Shown here: positions 1-6,049 of the stretch, one piece after another | Position numbering within the stretch: position 1 is the first letter of the stretch | Layout: each line of letters opens with the position of its first letter | Virus record (IMG/VR): IMGVR_UViG_2681813004_000019 | Span: 1-6,049 of that record | Direction: 5' to 3' (one strand) | Source: a virus | Lineage: Duplodnaviria > Heunggongvirae > Uroviricota > Caudoviricetes | DNA: 6,049 nucleotides | Position numbers and translations under genes: made by a program | Notes under the pieces: model-generated | What the model saw: only the letters and a program-made list of their open reading frames with translations | Databases searched by the model: none | What the model was told of the DNA's origin: nothing

Positions 1-804
1 ATGAAGCGCATGCATGACGCCTTCCCTAATCGTCCGGCATCTTCTATCACGGTTAAGCAATGGGTTGACCTGCTTACCGAAGAAGAAAAAGATAATCCAC
101 GCCGAGCAAGGCAGGTGCTAAGTCAACTAAGATCAGCAATTAGTTGGTGCATGCGGCGTCAGTTGATAGATAGTTGCGCAATTATGAGCATCCAGCCAAG
201 GGACTTCGGCTCCCGTGCTGAGGTAGGGGATCGGGTACTGTCGTATCACGAACTGGCTAAGATTTGGCTTGCTATTGAAAGAAGCCGTGCGTCTACGTCA
301 AATAAGCTCCTTCATCAGATGCTTATGCTGTGGGGGGCGAGGCTCTCAGAGCTTAGGCTGGCAACAAAGACAGAATTTGACCTGCTGGACAACGTATGGA
401 CCGTACCGAAAGAGCATAGCAAGATGGGTAATGTTATCCGCCGTCCAATCTTCGAACAAATTAAGCCTTTCCTCGATAAGGCCATGACAACGTACAATGA
501 TGTTCTTTTCCCTGGAGAAGACATAAACAAACCGATCAGCATCGCTGCAGCCAACCGATTCGTAAATAGAATAAGGGGAGGGATGGATATAGGTTACTGG
601 CGAACACATGATTTCAGAAGAACGCTTGTTACACGTCTGTCCGAGATGAATGTCGAGCCTCATGTTACTGAGCGAATGCTCGGTCATGAACTTGGCGGGA
701 TAATGTCCGTATACAATAAACACGACTGGATAGAGGCTCAGCGCAAAGCGTATGAGCTTCACGCTGATAAATTGTTCTGGCACATCAGGAGCATTTCTGA
801 TTAA
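1..804 (+). CDS. int: Tyrosine-type phage integrase, C-terminal catalytic part; the gene almost certainly starts upstream of the window
   Basis: The 267-aa frame from position 1 contains the catalytic-domain motifs HDFRRT (His-x-x-Arg), LGH and a C-terminal Tyr in SVYNKHDW, ending at a TAA at 802-804. The N-terminal DNA-binding portion expected for a ~350-400 aa integrase is missing, so the ATG at position 1 is probably internal. Confidence 0.85.
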   Translation: MKRMHDAFPNRPASSITVKQWVDLLTEEEKDNPRRARQVLSQLRSAISWCMRRQLIDSCAIMSIQPRDFGSRAEVGDRVLSYHELAKIWLAIERSRASTSNKLLHQMLMLWGARLSELRLATKTEFDLLDNVWTVPKEHSKMGNVIRRPIFEQIKPFLDKAMTTYNDVLFPGEDINKPISIAAANRFVNRIRGGMDIGYWRTHDFRRTLVTRLSEMNVEPHVTERMLGHELGGIMSVYNKHDWIEAQRKAYELHADKLFWHIRSISD

Positions 805-1188: not shown

Positions 1189-1212
1189 AAAAAAAGGAGC
1201 CGAAGCTCCTTT
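1189..1212 (-). terminator. Intrinsic terminator with a UUCG tetraloop, just downstream of the antirepressor-like gene
   Basis: Read on the - strand the sequence is AAAGGAGC-TTCG-GCTCCTTT followed by a run of 7 T, beginning 5 nt after the stop of the 1217-1840 gene. Confidence 0.65.
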
Positions 1213-1216
1213 GATA

Positions 1217-1840
1217 TTAAAATTCGAATTGTCTCGCCCGAAGGCTTTTTAACATTGGTCTTGCCCGTTCGAAAATGGCGCTTGTCTGGTCAATTCGTGT
1301 TGCCTCCCTGAGAAGTGCGTCTCTGTTTTTCGTCACCGCGTAGAAGGTTTCAAACGCGATGTCATACAGCTTGCTCGCGTATGATGAGTTAAGTTCCTTC
1401 ATTATCGGGTACAGGTGTTTGCAGATGTCCTGTGCATTCTCCATCTGTACCTGCATGTAGCAGAGGAGGATGATTTCCTCGTCTGTGAATTGCTGCGCTG
1501 GTTGCATGCTGCGAAGTTTCTTTTCGCACTCGATGAAGTATCGGCGTATCTGGCGGCCTTTTTCGTTGCGCTCCACCATCGCAGTTTCTTTGGCTGTATC
1601 GAGGGTGAGGTGATAGTCTTTGCTACGGCGATCGCCTCCTCGACCTTTGATTTCCCGATTTGGGGAAACCAAAATATAGTCCTGATTTTCAACGAAACCA
1701 TATTCAGCAATGCGTTCTGTAATCCACGATGCAAAGCGTTTACCTACCCCAAGAAAAGTATGTAAATCGCGAGCATTAACGAGAAGAGTGGTTTCGTTGG
1801 CGATAGTGCCGTTGAATACGGGGATGAGTTGACTGGTCAT
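1217..1840 (-). CDS. Phage antirepressor-like protein with an AntA/AntB-type N-terminal domain (207 aa)
   Basis: The N-terminal segment ...LVNARDLHTFLGVGKRFASWITERIAEYGFVENQDYILV... matches the recalled AntA/AntB antirepressor domain pattern. The gene sits downstream of a promoter/terminator leader and is followed by its own terminator. Confidence 0.55.
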   Translation of the reverse strand: MTSQLIPVFNGTIANETTLLVNARDLHTFLGVGKRFASWITERIAEYGFVENQDYILVSPNREIKGRGGDRRSKDYHLTLDTAKETAMVERNEKGRQIRRYFIECEKKLRSMQPAQQFTDEEIILLCYMQVQMENAQDICKHLYPIMKELNSSYASKLYDIAFETFYAVTKNRDALLREATRIDQTSAIFERARPMLKSLRARQFEF

Positions 1841-1985
1841 TTTTATGCCCTTTGCATTTGTTCAGATAGCCCTGTGTTCAGCAGGGCGGTCAGGTACTTG
1901 AACACCGTGCAAAGTCGGCCCGTATCCTTAACCTTTCGGTTGTTTTTCGGTATACGCGCTACCCGACCATATCTGAGAAATGGAC

Positions 1986-2015
1986 ATAAAAAAGCCGCAT
2001 GACTGACGGGTGCGG
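1986..2015 (-). terminator. Intrinsic terminator or attenuator on the - strand, in the leader upstream of the antirepressor-like gene
   Basis: Read on the - strand: CCGCA, an 11-nt loop, TGCGG, then CTTTTTTAT. The stem is short (5 bp), but the U-tract is strong. Confidence 0.5.
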
Positions 2016-2045
2016 TTTCCGCTTTGCAAGGTGTGTTCAGCACCA

Positions 2046-2083
2046 TGAAGCGGAATATAGCCCCGTTAATGCGGATTTGTCAA
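2046..2083 (-). promoter_or_regulatory. Sigma70-like promoter reading leftward toward the terminator and antirepressor gene
   Basis: On the - strand there is a perfect -35 TTGACA (+ coordinates 2078-2083), an 18-nt spacer, and a -10 TATATT (2054-2059). The predicted start is near 2046, about 58 nt upstream of the terminator U-tract. Confidence 0.5.
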
Positions 2084-2125
2084 ATCATGTGGTCTTTATC
2101 TTGCTGTAAGCCGCGCCATTCGGGA

Positions 2126-2147
2126 TTTTCCCCATATTTGGGGAAAA
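2126..2147. promoter_or_regulatory. Perfect 9-bp inverted repeat with a 4-bp spacer; candidate operator for a dimeric regulator
   Basis: TTTTCCCCA-TATT-TGGGGAAAA lies in the gap between the Ea22-like stop (2187) and the promoter. No T-tract follows it on either strand, so it is unlikely to be a terminator. Confidence 0.4.
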
Positions 2148-2186
2148 CTATCTGCGAAGTATTCACCTTTAACGGCAAGTTGCAAG

Positions 2187-3101
2187 TTAGCCACAGTTTA
2201 CCTCCTGCGGCGGTTCTGGTAGCGGCATCCAGAACAAGACGTTCCCTAACCACGATAAAGTGCCGTCGCTCAACTCCACGTATTCCCCTTGTACCTGTCC
2301 TGCCATATACTCGCCGTGCTTTGAATAAATTAAAATCCAATCATCTTGAGCGGGCATTCGCTCACTACAGCTTATCCAACTATCCGGAGTTACCGGAGAG
2401 TTGCCCGACAGCTCGTTCAACTTGTAAGTTTGGCTTACAGATTCGGCTTCCAGTGGCGGTAAATCTGGCACTGTTACGCCAAACAACGCTGCCAGTGCAC
2501 GATAGTTTTGCTCACTGTGATAGCGGCCTTTACAGCGAACCAGTTTTTCCGCAGCGGATTTGATTACTTCCAGTTCTGCTACCCTCTGCTGATACGTTAA
2601 TGACTCCTGTGCCAGCCCAGCATTCCAGTCTCGCAGTTCTGCTATGTGCTTCTCTGATGCTTCAAGTAACGCCTGCTTATCGCGTAGCGCTTCTTCCAGT
2701 TCAGCAACATGGCATTCACTATCAATAAGGTTGTTATCTGCGGCTTCCTGCTCTGATTTGCGCATCAAAACAACGTGCTTTAATGCGTCCTGGGCTTTCT
2801 GAAATTTCAGTGCATAGTCAGTGGCGATTTTTTCCAGTTCTGCGATACACTTGTTTTGGGCTTCCCGTTCATCCAGCAGTGCCTGCACTACTTTAGGGTT
2901 GAAAGCTGCGATAAATTCTGCGTTGTTCTCTGCATTTTTCTGGCCGTCAAAGCCAGGCCATTTGATAATGTCTCCGCAACGTTCATCCCCCGGCGTATGC
3001 ACCGCATATGTATCAGTGCCCGGCGAAATGAATGCGACCCATTCGCCCTGTGTTGCCTGTTTTGCTAACTCACGCAGTGCCTGATAGTCAATCTTGCTCA
3101 C
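2187..3101 (-). CDS. Ea22-like phage protein with a coiled-coil middle region and a DUF551-like C-terminal domain (304 aa)
   Basis: The N-terminus [21 protein letters not shown]...[10 protein letters not shown] matches the recalled ead/Ea22-like pattern. The middle is rich in heptad-like charged residues. The C-terminus carries the W/P-rich DUF551-type signature ([11 protein letters not shown]...WMPLPEPP). It uses a GTG start preceded by AGGAGG at 7 nt, and the start overlaps the stop of the upstream 55-aa ORF (GTGA). Confidence 0.7.
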
Positions 3102-3265
3102 TGGTTGCCTCCTTTACGCCACATCGCATTCAGATATTTGTTTTGATTCACTGATGGAAAAGAATTTCTCTTAAGCAATTCCTCTCTCGATGGCATTGGC
3201 TTTACGCGTTGGCGAATAATCATTTCTGCCGGAAGAATGCCGGGATTGTATGCAAGTCCTCTCAT
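3098..3265 (-). CDS. Small phage protein of unknown function (55 aa); its first 12 codons lie inside direct-repeat copy 1 and it has no good Shine-Dalgarno
   Basis: Hand translation gives [55 protein letters not shown]. Its stop overlaps the Ea22 GTG start. The sequence upstream of the ATG is chromosomal-like insert DNA without an SD, whereas the duplicated copy of the ATG at 3954 keeps a GAGGAA SD. Confidence 0.4.
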
Positions 3266-3271
3266 GGTAAA
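3231..3271. repeat. 41-bp perfect direct repeat, copy 1
   Basis: GGAAGAATGCCGGGATTGTATGCAAGTCCTCTCATGGTAAA is identical to 3920-3960, an offset of 689 bp. The flanking bases differ on both sides. Confidence 0.95.
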
Positions 3272-3343
3272 CCCGGTAGCCGTAAGGGATAAGCCGAGGG
3301 CACCGCGCAGCGGCGATTTTGTTCGCCAGAGCCCGGGGGTGCA

Positions 3344-3369
3344 GGGGGCGGCGGCGATTGGCCGCCCCC
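3344..3369. repeat. GC-rich perfect hairpin (9-bp stem, 8-nt loop)
   Basis: GGGGGCGGC-ggcgattg-GCCGCCCCC lies inside the inserted segment. No U-tract follows it on either strand. It could be a chromosomal extragenic repeat or structural element. Confidence 0.4.
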
Positions 3370-3481
3370 TGCGCGCTCCTTGCGCCAGTGATTATATGAA
3401 GCAATGCACATGACAGGAGCGCAACAGGATGAGAGACTGAAATATTCTCGTTATTTTCGGACCTGATGACATTAATTAATT

Positions 3482-3565
3482 TTAAAATATCATCTTAAAT
3501 ACGCCAGTCACCACCAGTAGCCCAATCAGGAAAATAATCAATACAGCCCAGAGTATAATTTTCAT
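3482..3565 (-). CDS. yohP: 27-aa hydrophobic single-pass membrane peptide resembling E. coli YohP (identification from memory)
   Basis: Hand translation gives MKIILWAVLIIFLIGLLVVTGVFKMIF with a TAA stop. AAGGA lies 6 nt upstream of the ATG. The peptide is almost entirely hydrophobic, consistent with one transmembrane helix. Confidence 0.5.
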   Translation of the reverse strand: MKIILWAVLIIFLIGLLVVTGVFKMIF

Positions 3566-3818
3566 TGGCGTTCCTTTATTTGTGAGTGCTGAATAAGTAT
3601 AGGAAAAAACGAAGCCCTTTGCCGTTATCCATAAACGATTAAGATAAATCGGAAGATATCATTCACTTAGTGTATATTTTTCTGGATATGTCGTTTTATT
3701 GCTACTGATGTATTGCCACGCGAAACTAAAAAATATATCGCAACACACGGTAATCTTCGCGCACCTTTTCTTACCTGATTATTCCCCCATGAATCGTGAT
3801 TCCTTTTATCCAGCCATC

Positions 3819-3918
3819 GGGTAATGCTGCCAACTTACTGATTTAGTGTATGATGGTGTTTTTGAGGTGCTCCAGTGGCTTCTGTTTCTATCAGCTGTCC
3901 CTCCTGTTCAGCTACTGA
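3819..3918 (+). mobile_element. insA: IS1 terminal fragment: left inverted repeat plus the first 14 codons of insA, truncated
   Basis: GGTAATGCTGCCAACTTACTGAT...GAGGTGCTCCAGTGGCTTCTGTTTCTATCAGCTGTCCCTCCTGTTCAGCTACTGA matches the recalled IS1 end and the InsA N-terminus MASVSISCPSCSAT. Identity stops at 3918, one base before repeat copy 2. Confidence 0.8.
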
Positions 3919-3919
3919 A

Positions 3920-3960
3920 GGAAGAATGCCGGGATTGTATGCAAGTCCTCTCATGGTAAA
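3920..3960. repeat. 41-bp perfect direct repeat, copy 2, abutting the IS1 fragment
   Basis: Identical to 3231-3271. It contains the ATG (3954) and first 12 codons of the small ORF, here preceded by the native GAGGAA SD and the stop of the 98-aa gene. Confidence 0.95.
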
Positions 3961-5856: not shown

Positions 5857-5989
5857 TTTTTGGAACTCCTGGCTGATTAAGTATGTCGATAAGGCGTTTC
5901 CATCCGTCACGTAATTTACGTGTGATTCGCTCAAGTAAAGATTCGGAAGGGCAGCCAGCAACAGGCCACCCTGCAATGGCATATTGCAT
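5849..5989 (-). CDS. cIII: CIII-like protein (lambda cIII family, FtsH inhibitor that stabilises CII), 46 aa as encoded here
   Basis: MQYAIAGWPVAGCPSESLLERITRKLRDGWKRLIDILNQPGVPKNG matches the recalled lambda CIII sequence, including the central amphipathic helix. A strong RBS AAGGAG lies 6 nt upstream of the ATG. Confidence 0.8.
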   Translation of the reverse strand: MQYAIAGWPVAGCPSESLLERITRKLRDGWKRLIDILNQPGVPKNG

Positions 5990-6049
5990 GGTGTGCTCCT
6001 TATTTATACATAACGAAAACGCCTCGAGTGAAGCGTTATTGGTATGCAT

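What the first reader, a model, noticed from the sequence alone, without database searches (positions are those of the whole stretch)
1986..2147. Compact control region upstream of the antirepressor-like gene: palindrome, strong promoter and close-coupled terminator
Within about 160 bp there are three elements: a perfect 9-bp inverted repeat TTTTCCCCA-TATT-TGGGGAAAA (2126-2147); a promoter with a perfect TTGACA -35 and TATATT -10 on the - strand (2054-2083); and, roughly 58 nt after the predicted start, a hairpin plus U-tract terminator (1986-2015) immediately before the AntA-like gene. This resembles phage promoter-terminator pairs such as lambda pR'-tR' or po-to, and the immunity I logic of P22 ant control. 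It would give either a constitutive short RNA of about 60 nt that could act in trans or antisense, or an attenuator that permits antirepressor expression only under antitermination. The palindrome is a candidate binding site for an unidentified dimeric regulator. Antirepressor control determines whether a prophage induces independently of host SOS. A near-copy of one half-site, TTTGGGGAAAC, occurs inside the antirepressor gene at about 1668-1678, which may be coincidence.
Basis: partly seen in the sequence, partly recalled or inferred. Interest (0 to 1): 0.55.

Follow-up and report, generated by a model that had tools for sequence, protein, structure and literature searches.

The report
Antisense RNA cassette guarding antirepressor gene

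Summary
All three elements exist. The promoter (2083..2054, minus strand) and the hairpin plus U-tract (2015..1988) are real and conserved. The palindrome (2126-2147) is a leftover of AntA-domain coding DNA at the cassette's edge, not a likely operator.

Between the terminator and the antA start codon lies an sRNA-Xcc1 RNA (RF02221, 1968..1880, 69 bits).
- Its hairpin-2 loop (CUUUGCA) is complementary to UGCAAAG in the short leader (2028..2022) and to UGCAAAG overlapping the antA Shine-Dalgarno (1856..1850).
- A second element (GUGUUCA) matches UGAACAC in the leader hairpin loop and again upstream of the ribosome-binding site.

Across about 150 non-redundant loci from phages and bacterial genomes these sites co-vary. 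At a fixed position, 60 of 71 leader 7-mers are antisense to their own loop (2.0 expected on permutation), with 53 distinct 7-mers. The downstream genes encode AntA, Bro-N, KilA-N, Rha, ORF6N or P22_AR_N proteins.

Phage N15's C4 (immA) locus has the same topology. The region is therefore a P1/N15/P4-type RNA immunity module built on a different RNA family. Base-pairing is well supported; translational repression and the role of the leader are inferred.

The parts
2126..2147 (-). Perfect 9-bp inverted repeat. It lies inside a 53-bp relic (2094-2146) of AntA-domain coding DNA at the 5' edge of the cassette (mosaic breakpoint at 2153/2154). Probably not a regulatory site.
2054..2083 (-). Sigma-70 promoter, TTGACA (2083..2078), 18 nt, TATATT (2059..2054). 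The predicted start is near 2047-2046.
   Evidence: 11 of 12; conserved TTGAC(N) -35 in 81 of 98 related loci; annotated 'promoter by homology' in phage Nil2.
2030..2044 (-). Leader 5' hairpin GGUG-CUGAACA-CACC. Its loop carries target copy b1 (UGAACAC, 2039..2033), which is complementary to sRNA element b2.
2022..2028 (-). Leader target copy a1 (UGCAAAG), complementary to the sRNA hairpin-2 loop. It abuts arm a (GCGG, 2022..2019).
1988..2015 (-). Terminator-like hairpin CCGCA-N11-UGCGG followed by C-U6. Arm b (CCGC) can pair instead with arm a (GCGG).
1880..1968 (-). sRNA-Xcc1 family RNA. P1 is 1968..1960 with 1896..1888; hairpin 2 is 1919..1904; a2 loop CUUUGCA is 1914..1908; b2 GUGUUCA is 1905..1899; the 3' tail GCCC is 1887..1884.
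   Evidence: Rfam RF02221, 69.3 bits against a gathering score of 53, E = 1.6e-11; own model R1, 69.6 bits; helix covariation.
1869..1887 (-). Hairpin GCCCUG-CUGAACA-CAGGGC directly after the sRNA. Its loop carries a b-type target copy (UGAACAC, 1880..1874).
1848..1864 (-). Target at the antA ribosome-binding site: b' UGAACA (1864..1859), then a' UGCAAAG (1856..1850), which overlaps the Shine-Dalgarno AAGGG (1852..1848). The ATG is at 1840..1838.
1217..1840 (-). antA: a 207-aa antirepressor-type protein (AntA N-terminal domain plus P22_AR_C).
1189..1212 (-). Strong intrinsic terminator after antA (AAAGGAGC-UUCG-GCUCCUUU + U run, -11 kcal/mol). It closes the cassette.

Best explanation
The region is the front end of an autonomous, moron-like RNA immunity cassette: promoter, then a ~58-nt leader ending in a weak intrinsic terminator, then the sRNA-Xcc1 RNA, then the antA ribosome-binding site and gene, then a terminator.

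Proposed sequence of events. Transcripts that read through the leader terminator carry the 89-nt sRNA. It is probably excised (RNase P-like 5' processing is suggested but untested) and accumulates. Its hairpin-2 loop (a2) and the junction 3' of it (b2) pair with a'/b' at the antA Shine-Dalgarno and block translation, so the antirepressor stays off while the sRNA is present. The same two elements also pair with copies a1/b1 in the nascent or terminated leader. That pairing is predicted to flip the leader from a GCGG:CCGC hairpin to the CCGCA:UGCGG terminator hairpin.

My preferred reading is that this gives feedback on read-through, as in the P4 CI and N15 type of control.

Status of each step. 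Shown here: the parts, their order, and the three-way co-variation of two sequence elements. Inferred: co-transcription, processing, translational repression, and the direction of the leader effect.
For: Rfam identifies sRNA-Xcc1 at 1968..1880 above its gathering score. The same RNA sits between a TTGACA promoter with a hairpin-T-tract leader and an ant-type gene in phages Nil2, Aaphi23 and phiON-2011, and in 14 of 14 sampled viral contigs.

My own covariance model finds it 16-77 nt after the leader hairpin in 121 of 133 hits. The other 12 have variant hairpins with compensatory stems.

Fixed-position test: the leader 7-mer abutting CGG is antisense to its own hairpin 2 in 60 of 71 loci (permuted mean 2.0, maximum 8 in 2000 permutations). 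It recurs within 80 nt 3' of the sRNA in 54 of 71 (permuted mean 1.9). There are 53 distinct 7-mers. The downstream copy ends in AG-GAG, 8-12 nt before the ATG.

A genome set selected only by a hairpin-1 motif gives the same result: 67 of 76 have at least 7 nt of complementarity.

The second element also co-varies: own-locus match 7.0 nt against 4.4 for other loci on the leader side, and 6.1 against 4.2 on the ribosome-binding-site side.

All 12 loci that hold several cassettes have different loops in each.

Downstream genes carry AntA, ORF6N, Bro-N, P22_AR_N, Rha or KilA-N domains in 16 of 20 representatives.

The sRNA helices are 97.8% paired, and 16 of 18 pairs show changes on both sides. 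The tail after P1 is N-C(92%)-C(96%).

The N15 immA locus (IsrK/c4-a1b1 leader, terminator, C4, ant) shows the identical placement of a and b elements.

RNAfold predicts the leader switch when a1 is masked: P(a:b) falls from 0.94 to 0.13 and P(b:c) rises from 0.04 to 0.71.

Published data: an 88-nt discrete RNA in Xanthomonas (PMC2996969), and an abundant RNA annotated sRNA-Xcc1 with low ribosome coverage in EHEC (PMC5331693).
Against: There are no transcript, processing or translation data for this locus.

The leader hairpin is thermodynamically weak (z = +0.71) and was missed by the generic terminator scan.

A 7-nt plus 6-7-nt interaction is short.

The viral set was fished with the leader hairpin pattern. 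This biases the leader hairpin itself, though not the loop, leader-site or RBS sequences.

The alignments were fitted to my model.

In Xanthomonadaceae copies the downstream a' site is missing although the leader site is kept, so targeting of the ribosome-binding site is not universal in the family.

I could not locate the EHEC sRNA-Xcc1 at the published coordinates in the assembly I had, so its context is unverified.

The C4 covariance model does not match this RNA.

The direction of the leader effect cannot be derived from sequence.
Confidence: 0.72

Rival explanations
1. IsrK-type activation. Most transcripts stop at the U-tract. The resulting abundant ~58-nt leader RNA, which carries a1/b1, acts in trans as a decoy that titrates the sRNA (or refolds the read-through mRNA) and so turns antA translation ON. 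The promoter-terminator pair would then be the inducer arm rather than a feedback arm.
For: In Gifsy-1, short IsrK (a terminated leader) binds the read-through isrK-orf45-anrP transcript and activates translation of the antirepressor (PMC4825925). The IsrK/c4-a1b1 leaders of N15 and Nil2 have the same layout as this leader. Here the leader copies are as well matched to the sRNA as the ribosome-binding-site copies are.
Against: It does not explain why the a1 site always abuts the terminator or anti-terminator arm (ending 5-8 nt before CCGC in nearly all loci). It does not explain why masking a1 switches the predicted leader fold. No abundance data exist. This reading is compatible with the core model (sRNA represses at the ribosome-binding site) and differs only in the role of the leader.
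Confidence: 0.3
2. This is a lambda pR'-tR'-like promoter-terminator pair, and antA is expressed only when a phage antiterminator (N or Q) modifies RNA polymerase. The structured RNA is incidental.
For: In Aaphi23 the cassette sits directly after a Q-like gene and before ant and the lysis genes. In the window, pL-derived N-modified transcription from upstream would also read through the leader terminator (inference).
Against: In the window the cassette is in the early-left arm next to int/xis. In Nil2 it lies between two ant genes, and in Lys12581Vzw it is one of tandem ant cassettes. Adjacency to Q is therefore not a shared feature. The model does not explain the three-way co-variation.
Confidence: 0.08
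3. The palindrome 2126-2147 is the operator of a dimeric repressor or activator that controls the antA promoter.
For: It is an exact 9-bp inverted repeat centred about 90 bp upstream of the predicted start. Inverted-repeat character is kept in phiON-2011 and Lys12581Vzw.
Against: It is at chance level in a 6-kb window. Positions 2094-2146 are 96% identical to internal AntA-domain coding DNA in E. coli ABU 83972, where the sequence encodes ISPNLGKS. The spacer differs between relatives (4, 7 and 8 nt). It is absent from the Nil2, Aaphi23 and most other cassettes. The 'second half-site' is the homologous codons of antA itself.
Confidence: 0.06
4. sRNA-Xcc1 is a free-standing trans-acting sRNA that regulates unlinked host or virulence genes, as proposed for Xanthomonas and Xylella. 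Its position next to antA would be a hitch-hiking accident.
For: It is described as trans-acting and under HrpG/HrpX control in Xanthomonas (title of Chen et al. 2011, cited; the paper itself was not readable). Xanthomonadaceae copies lack an adjacent a' site.
Against: Linkage to antirepressor-type genes holds across phyla. The loop co-varies with the adjacent Shine-Dalgarno region. Cassettes within one locus have different loops.
Confidence: 0.05

Closest known systems
Phage P1/P7 immI: c4 antisense RNA, icd, ant (Rfam C4 RF01695 and c4-a1b1 RF03163)
   Same: The antisense RNA is encoded on the same strand, upstream of its target, in one transcription unit with an antirepressor. Two recognition elements (a, b) are present in three copies: in the leader, in the RNA, and at the downstream ribosome-binding site. 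The RNA has a closing stem, two inner hairpins and a 3' RCC tail. Specificity varies between heteroimmune relatives. (The role of P1 is cited from PMC8198154; details of a1b1/a2b2/a'b' and of RNase P processing are from my own knowledge of Citron and Schuster 1990 and Hartmann et al. 1995.)
   Different: It is a different RNA family: the C4 model gives no hit here even at E = 10. P1 is 8-9 bp instead of about 17, and hairpin 1 is large, with conserved AUACAA / GGGGAAUA internal loops. There is no icd-like upstream ORF; the target is the Shine-Dalgarno of the ant gene itself. No C1-type operator is evident.
Phage N15 immA (anti-immunity) locus
   Same: I analysed it here. The order is promoter, IsrK/c4-a1b1 leader ending in an annotated rho-independent terminator, C4 RNA, then ant. 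The elements are placed as in the window: a2 in the hairpin-2 loop, b2 in the 3' junction, b1 in a leader hairpin loop, a1 just 5' of the terminator, and b' then a' before the Shine-Dalgarno.
   Different: The RNA belongs to the C4 family. Two small ORFs precede ant. Experimental work on its small processed RNA (Ravin et al. 1999) is recalled from memory and was not found in the library.
Satellite phage P4 CI RNA with seqA / seqC
   Same: A processed RNA from an untranslated leader pairs with complementary sequences both upstream and downstream of itself, and causes premature termination (as summarised in PMC4825925).
   Different: The P4 target controls replication genes, not an antirepressor. 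Termination there is not at a leader hairpin directly abutting the upstream site (my own knowledge). I did not analyse any P4 sequence.
Gifsy-1 IsrK / STnc1160 / anrP (Rfam isrK RF01394)
   Same: The promoter-proximal sRNA ends at an intrinsic terminator. Read-through yields an mRNA for an antirepressor, and a stable processed RNA is made downstream of the terminator. The short form acts in trans on the long form.
   Different: The isrK model does not match the window leader. In Gifsy-1 the demonstrated effect is activation through an upstream ORF (orf45).
P22 immI sar RNA; lambda pR'-tR' 6S RNA and oop
   Same: A short RNA linked to control of ant or of late genes; a promoter paired closely with a terminator.
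   Different: sar and oop are transcribed convergently, as true cis-antisense RNAs, whereas here everything is on one strand. pR'-tR' needs Q and qut, which are not present here.
Antisense-RNA-driven transcription attenuation in plasmids pT181 / pIP501 (my own knowledge)
   Same: If the leader switch predicted is real, sRNA binding would choose between two alternative hairpins ahead of a U-tract.
   Different: Those countertranscripts are made from the opposite strand. Untested here.

Membership tests
Rfam RF02221 sRNA-Xcc1 | Covariance-model score at or above the curated gathering score (53 bits), full length | tested here: met
   69.3 bits, E = 1.6e-11, model positions 1-87 of 87, at 1968..1880 on the minus strand.
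Rfam RF02221 sRNA-Xcc1 | Closing stem enclosing two hairpins, supported by covariation | tested here: met
   97.8% of cells are paired and 16 of 18 pairs have changes on both sides. Slid controls give at most 56% paired. The alignment was fitted to my model.
P1/P7/N15 c4-type immunity RNA (Rfam C4 RF01695, clan CL00128) | Match to the C4 covariance model | tested here: not met
   No C4 hit in the window at E up to 10. The same search finds C4 in Nil2 (66.7 bits) and N15 (78.8 bits).
P1/P7/N15 c4-type immunity RNA (Rfam C4 RF01695, clan CL00128) | Recognition elements present three times: upstream leader, the RNA itself, downstream ribosome-binding site | tested here: met
   Window: a1 2028..2022, a2 1914..1908, a' 1856..1850; b1 2039..2033, b2 1905..1899, b' 1864..1859 and 1880..1874. 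They co-vary across loci. N15 has the same topology.
P1/P7/N15 c4-type immunity RNA (Rfam C4 RF01695, clan CL00128) | The controlled gene is an antirepressor | tested here: met
   AntA (95 bits) plus P22_AR_C (37 bits). Antirepressor activity itself was not tested.
P1/P7/N15 c4-type immunity RNA (Rfam C4 RF01695, clan CL00128) | The mature RNA is released from the leader transcript by RNase P | not testable with these tools
   Consistent features only: no room for a promoter in the 19 nt between the U-tract and P1; a conserved N-C-C tail after P1; and an 88-nt mature species in Xanthomonas whose length matches the 87-position Rfam model.
P1/P7/N15 c4-type immunity RNA (Rfam C4 RF01695, clan CL00128) | A small upstream ORF (icd-like) whose translation is the direct target | tested here: not met
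   The a' site overlaps the Shine-Dalgarno of antA itself, 9 nt before its ATG. There is no intervening ORF.
IsrK (Rfam RF01394) / c4-a1b1 (RF03163) leader | Match to the covariance model | tested here: not met
   No hit at 1986-2046 at E up to 10.
IsrK (Rfam RF01394) / c4-a1b1 (RF03163) leader | Promoter-proximal RNA that carries the target copies and ends in a hairpin plus U-run | tested here: met
   by sequence only.
Intrinsic (rho-independent) terminator | GC-rich hairpin immediately followed by a U-run | tested here: inconclusive
   The stem is 5 bp with an 11-nt loop, followed by C-U6. It was not called by the scan and is weak, but it is conserved with 28 different stems in 67 of 75 unbiased loci. 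Termination efficiency is unknown.
Lambda pR'-tR' late control | Located after the Q gene, with a qut site, ahead of the lysis and late genes | tested here: not met
   The window is the int-xis-ea-cIII early-left arm. Only Aaphi23 has Q upstream.
P22 sar-type cis-antisense control | Convergent promoter producing an RNA from the strand opposite to ant | tested here: not met
   No plus-strand promoter-like site in 1840-2150. All elements are on the minus strand.

The most novel reading that the evidence does not exclude
sRNA-Xcc1 cassettes may form a very large, programmable set of mutually orthogonal RNA 'immunity' specificities. There are at least 53 different 7-mers in the sample, and the loops always differ within one genome. 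The set has spread across many bacterial phyla.

Copies that keep the leader site but have no adjacent target (integron cassettes in Xanthomonadaceae; tandem arrays such as the five copies reported in Xylella) would then act in trans. They would silence the antirepressor, Bro or KilA-N genes of incoming or resident phages that carry the matching sequence. This would be an RNA-guided superinfection-immunity or anti-induction system carried by mobile elements.
Probability: 0.15. Interest if true: 0.85.

Novelty: new variant of a known kind. Interest (0 to 1): 0.7.

Why it matters
Antirepressors decide whether a prophage is induced independently of SOS, including in Shiga-toxin phages. Near-identical copies of this cassette occur in many Stx2a-converting phages, and parts of this region match 382 of 5,426 complete E. 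coli genomes, 79 of them over at least 80% of its length.

The analysis gives a concrete, testable mechanism for an Rfam family that has been annotated for 15 years as a virulence-associated sRNA of unknown function. None of the papers mentioning it that I examined describes this mechanism.

It shows that the c4/CI style of RNA immunity is not confined to P1-, N15- and P4-like elements. The same style exists in a second RNA scaffold, linked to nearly every class of Bro, KilA-N, AntA, Rha and ORF6N gene, in Proteobacteria and in genome assemblies attributed to Acidobacteriota, Bacteroidota, Planctomycetota and Verrucomicrobiota.

The short, modular and co-varying recognition elements also make it a natural candidate for orthogonal synthetic riboregulators.

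Tried and rejected
1. Generic terminator scan and folding of 1980-2046. On these alone the terminator looks unconvincing. I kept it only because of comparative evidence.
2. MAFFT plus RNAalifold on 17 sRNAs gave a poor structure (-4 kcal/mol). I replaced it with a hand-specified structure and realignment to a covariance model.
3. A pairing between the conserved terminator loop (ACCCG) and the 5' strand of P1 (CGGGU), and a 3-4-bp pseudoknot CGG(a):CCG(loop). These are suggestive: CGG follows the a-site in 46 of 67 loci and CCG lies in the loop in 55 of 67, with matched variants in L171, L219 and L138. I did not test them formally and make no claim.
4. The palindrome flank as an extended relic of the window's own antA. 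The local alignment is only marginal (score 24; 8 of 500 shuffles reach it). The real source turned out to be a different antA/antB lineage.
5. I tried to confirm that the abundant EHEC 'sRNA-Xcc1' (PMC5331693) lies in such a cassette. The published coordinate falls on a hok/gef gene in assembly NZ_CP008957, and my model finds nothing there. The paper probably used another coordinate system, so this remains unresolved.
6. Chen et al. 2011 (the sRNA-Xcc1 paper) was not readable, and a search for the N15 CA RNA work found nothing in the library.
7. RNAduplex energies for whole-sRNA against target are meaningless because the sRNA is unfolded in that calculation. I did not use them.
Full report
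CONTEXT. The window is the early-left arm of a lambdoid prophage, and all the genes named here lie on the minus strand except the integrase fragment. The features are an integrase 3' end (1-804, plus strand), an AlpA/Xis-like ORF, a 55-aa ORF, a 207-aa ORF at 1840..1217, an Ea22-like ORF at 3101..2187, a DUF669-like gene, an ATPase gene, and cIII with its Rfam thermoregulator element at 6002..5944. The 207-aa protein has an AntA N-terminal domain (95 bits) and a P22 antirepressor C-terminal domain (37 bits).

CHECK OF THE OBSERVATION: PROMOTER AND HAIRPIN. The promoter TTGACA-18-TATATT at 2083..2054 is the best sigma-70 match in the window, at 11 of 12 positions. The hairpin CCGCA-N11-UGCGG followed by C-U6 is at 2015..1988. 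Taken alone it is unconvincing. The terminator scan missed it, and the ~67-nt leader folds no better than shuffled sequence (z = +0.71).

CHECK OF THE OBSERVATION: PALINDROME. The palindrome is exact at 2126-2147. Inverted repeats of this quality are expected 0.29 times per shuffled window. The 'half-site' is at 1659-1669, not 1668-1678.

THE MISSING PIECE. An Rfam scan placed an sRNA-Xcc1 RNA (RF02221) at 1968..1880 on the minus strand, at 69.3 bits against a gathering score of 53.

BLAST against phage records found the same promoter-leader block in front of ant-type genes in many Stx phages, in phage Nil2 (annotated there as 'promoter by homology' between antA and antB) and, surprisingly, in the Aggregatibacter phage Aaphi23. 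Each of these also has sRNA-Xcc1 in the same position, at 65-86 bits. In the four-way alignment the most conserved block is the hairpin plus T-run.

THE KEY RESULT. In all four phages the loop of the sRNA's second hairpin is complementary to two sites: a site in the leader just 5' of the GCGG arm, and the sequence running into the Shine-Dalgarno of the ant gene. All three change together:
- window: CUUUGCA / UGCAAAG / UGCAAAG-GG
- Nil2: CUACUUG / CAAGUAG / CAAGUAG-G
- Aaphi23: CUGUUUG / CAAACAG / CAAACAG-GAG
- phiON-2011: CUUUGAAG / CUUCAAAG / CUUCAAAG-GAGG

TEST ON THE VIRAL SET. To test this I collected 119 viral contigs with the leader hairpin pattern. I confirmed sRNA-Xcc1 by Rfam in 14 of 14 sampled contigs and built a covariance model from 17 Rfam-supported copies. 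The model found 133 copies in the viral loci. Of these, 121 had the exact leader motif 16-77 nt upstream, and the rest had variant hairpins with compensatory stems.

Among 78 non-redundant hairpin-2 sequences, about 70 showed a perfect 7-8-nt match. One match was to a leader site ending 5-8 nt before CCGC. The other was to a site 18-40 nt after the sRNA that ends in AG-GAG, 8-12 nt before an ATG.

In a fixed-position test, the leader 7-mer abutting CGG was antisense to its own hairpin in 60 of 71 loci. After permuting loci the mean was 2.0 and the maximum 8 in 2000 permutations. The 7-mer recurred downstream in 54 of 71 (permuted mean 1.9). There were 53 different 7-mers.

TEST ON AN UNBIASED GENOME SET. 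A genome scan used a motif from hairpin 1 only, so it was unbiased for the leader, the loop and the ribosome-binding site. It returned 120 loci from Gamma-, Beta-, Alpha- and Deltaproteobacteria and from assemblies attributed to Acidobacteriota, Bacteroidota, Planctomycetota, Verrucomicrobiota and others. In this set 67 of 76 non-redundant copies have at least 7 nt of leader complementarity. In 67 of 75 loci a hairpin stands directly before a run of at least 4 T, with 28 different 5' stem strands. The terminator-like hairpin is therefore a real, selected RNA structure.

A SECOND RECOGNITION ELEMENT. The junction 3' of hairpin 2 (window GUGUUCA, 1905..1899) is complementary to three places:
- the loop of the leader's 5' hairpin (UGAACAC, 2039..2033)
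- the loop of a hairpin right after the sRNA (1880..1874)
- UGAACA at 1864..1859, two nucleotides before the a' site

This element co-varies as well. The own-locus match is 7.0 nt against 4.4 for other loci on the leader side, and 6.1 against 4.2 on the ribosome-binding-site side.

OTHER SHARED FEATURES OF THE CASSETTES.
- A TTGAC(N) -35 is present in 81 of 98 loci.
- The downstream genes encode AntA, ORF6N, Bro-N, P22_AR_N, Rha or KilA-N domains, often with P22_AR_C, in 16 of 20 representatives.
- Loci with several cassettes always have different loops (12 of 12).
- The sRNA helices are strongly supported.
- The three nucleotides after the closing stem are N-C-C, with C at 92% and 96%.

COMPARISON WITH KNOWN SYSTEMS. 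The layout is that of the c4-type immunity loci. In Nil2 and in phage N15, Rfam finds an IsrK/c4-a1b1 leader ending in a terminator, then C4, then an antirepressor operon.

Analysing N15 in the same way showed the same placement of elements:
- the hairpin-2 loop of C4 (CUUCUUGU) matches ACAAGAAG just 5' of the leader terminator and UACAAGA before the Shine-Dalgarno
- the 3' junction (GUUGAGAA) matches the loop of a leader hairpin (UCUCAAC) and UUCUCAAC downstream

Published work supplies the functional precedents. P1 needs C4 RNA for full repression of ant (PMC8198154). In Gifsy-1 the terminated leader IsrK acts in trans on the read-through antirepressor mRNA, and a processed RNA (STnc1160) arises downstream of the terminator. 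The same paper summarises P4 CI RNA pairing with seqA upstream and seqC downstream (PMC4825925).

The window RNA is not a member of the C4 or isrK families as defined by their models. It works like them on a different scaffold.

HOW IT MOST LIKELY WORKS. Shown by sequence and comparison: the parts, their order, and two co-varying pairing elements that link the sRNA to the leader and to the antA ribosome-binding site. Inferred:
1. One promoter drives everything. Only 19 nt separate the U-run from the sRNA.
2. The sRNA is cut out and accumulates. The supporting data are an 88-nt species in Xanthomonas (PMC2996969) and an abundant RNA annotated sRNA-Xcc1 with low ribosome coverage in EHEC (PMC5331693), whose locus I could not verify.
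3. Pairing at the Shine-Dalgarno blocks antA translation.
4. Pairing at the leader changes its fold. RNAfold predicts GCGG:CCGC (P = 0.94) when the leader is free and CCGCA:UGCGG (P = 0.71-0.92) when a1 is masked.

Whether the fourth step increases termination (feedback, P4/N15-like, which I prefer) cannot be decided from sequence. The alternative is that the terminated leader serves as a decoy that activates antA, as IsrK does.

THE PALINDROME. Homology to Stx2a-phage cassettes ends at 2153, right next to the palindrome. Other phages share only 2155-2198. Alignment shows that 2155-2194 is the 5' end of an ASCH-like gene that is intact in VT2-Sakai and truncated here.

Positions 2094-2146 are 96% identical to internal AntA-domain coding sequence of an antA/antB gene in E. 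coli ABU 83972, where the sequence encodes ISPNLGKS. The palindrome therefore travels with the cassette as a relic of another ant gene.

The spacer of the repeat differs between relatives (4, 7 and 8 nt), and the repeat is absent from most cassettes. The similar 'half-site' inside antA is the homologous SPN-motif codons. An operator function is not excluded but is unsupported.

NOVELTY. The 16 of the 24 library papers mentioning sRNA-Xcc1 that date from 2019 on were all listed, and 8 papers were opened. They treat it as a virulence-associated or vesicle-borne sRNA, or simply note it upstream of an ORF6N gene (APSE phage) or of symE (Xanthomonas integrons). In the passages read, none describes the leader, the pairing or a link to c4. 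The original 2011 paper could not be read, so prior description cannot be fully excluded. I rate it a new variant of a known kind.

CAVEATS. There are no expression data for this locus. The viral set was selected through the leader hairpin. The alignments are fitted to my model. Related sequences are not independent, although 53 distinct 7-mers and the cross-locus permutations address this. Xanthomonadaceae copies keep the leader site but lack the adjacent a' site.

Noticed in passing
window 3226-3960: A 46-nt direct repeat (3226-3271 and 3915-3960, 96% identical) brackets a 643-bp insert (3272-3914) that is 99.7% identical to the E. coli chromosomal yohP-mdtQ region plus an IS1 piece. This looks like host DNA carried inside the prophage, probably through an IS1-mediated event or an assembly chimera. 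A sub-threshold AgvB-like Rfam hit (22.9 bits) lies inside it at 3459..3399.
   Followed up: partly
window 2155-2194 (minus strand): The first ~13 codons of an ASCH-like gene ([13 protein letters not shown]...), intact in VT2-Sakai, are fused to the cassette's relic sequence. This gives a 32-aa ORF (2194..2096). Window and phiON-2011 differ at 5 positions in it, 4 of them synonymous.
   Followed up: partly
window 5944-6002 (minus strand): Lambda cIII thermoregulator element (Rfam RF01804, 88.5 bits) at the start of a cIII-like ORF.
   Followed up: no
L245 (E. coli ABU 83972) about 1330-1349; window 1651-1669: AntA-domain genes encode their SPN motif with (near-)palindromic DNA. ABU 83972 has a perfect 20-bp palindrome TTTCCCCAAATTTGGGGAAA inside the coding sequence. 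The window's own antA has TTTCCCGATTTGGGGAAA. I did not examine whether this symmetry has a DNA-level role, for example as a recombination point for cassette exchange.
   Followed up: no
L244 (phage Lys12581Vzw) 745-830 and 1281-1369; L122, L010, L109 and others: Several phages carry two or three tandem antirepressor cassettes, each with its own sRNA-Xcc1. The loops always differ (12 of 12 loci).
   Followed up: partly
L124, L128, L148, L159, L164, L168, L187, L189, L214, L220, L221 (Xanthomonadaceae): These copies keep the promoter, the leader site, the terminator and the sRNA, with loop and leader site co-varying. The gene that follows shows no matching a' site at its ribosome-binding site. 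A preprint reports sRNA-Xcc1 upstream of symE in Xanthomonas integron cassettes. Their target is unknown.
   Followed up: partly
L127, L131, L179 (Bartonella sp. DGB2): A variant leader in which the hairpin after the a1 site (UAAAUAA-CCGAAA-UUAUUUA) is not followed by a T-run, although the a' site at the ribosome-binding site is kept.
   Followed up: no
leaders of many loci (e.g. window 2019-2022 and 2006-2008): The CGG directly after the a1 site and a CCG in the terminator loop are both widely conserved and change together in a few loci (CGGG with CCCG in L171 and L219; both lost in L138). This hints at a small pseudoknot.
   Followed up: partly
L001 (phage Nil2) 1402-2628: One phage carries both RNA systems in series: an IsrK/c4-a1b1 leader, C4 and antA, followed directly by the sRNA-Xcc1 cassette and antB. 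The depositors annotated the split as an ant gene 'disrupted by a putative bacterial retrotransposon'.
   Followed up: partly
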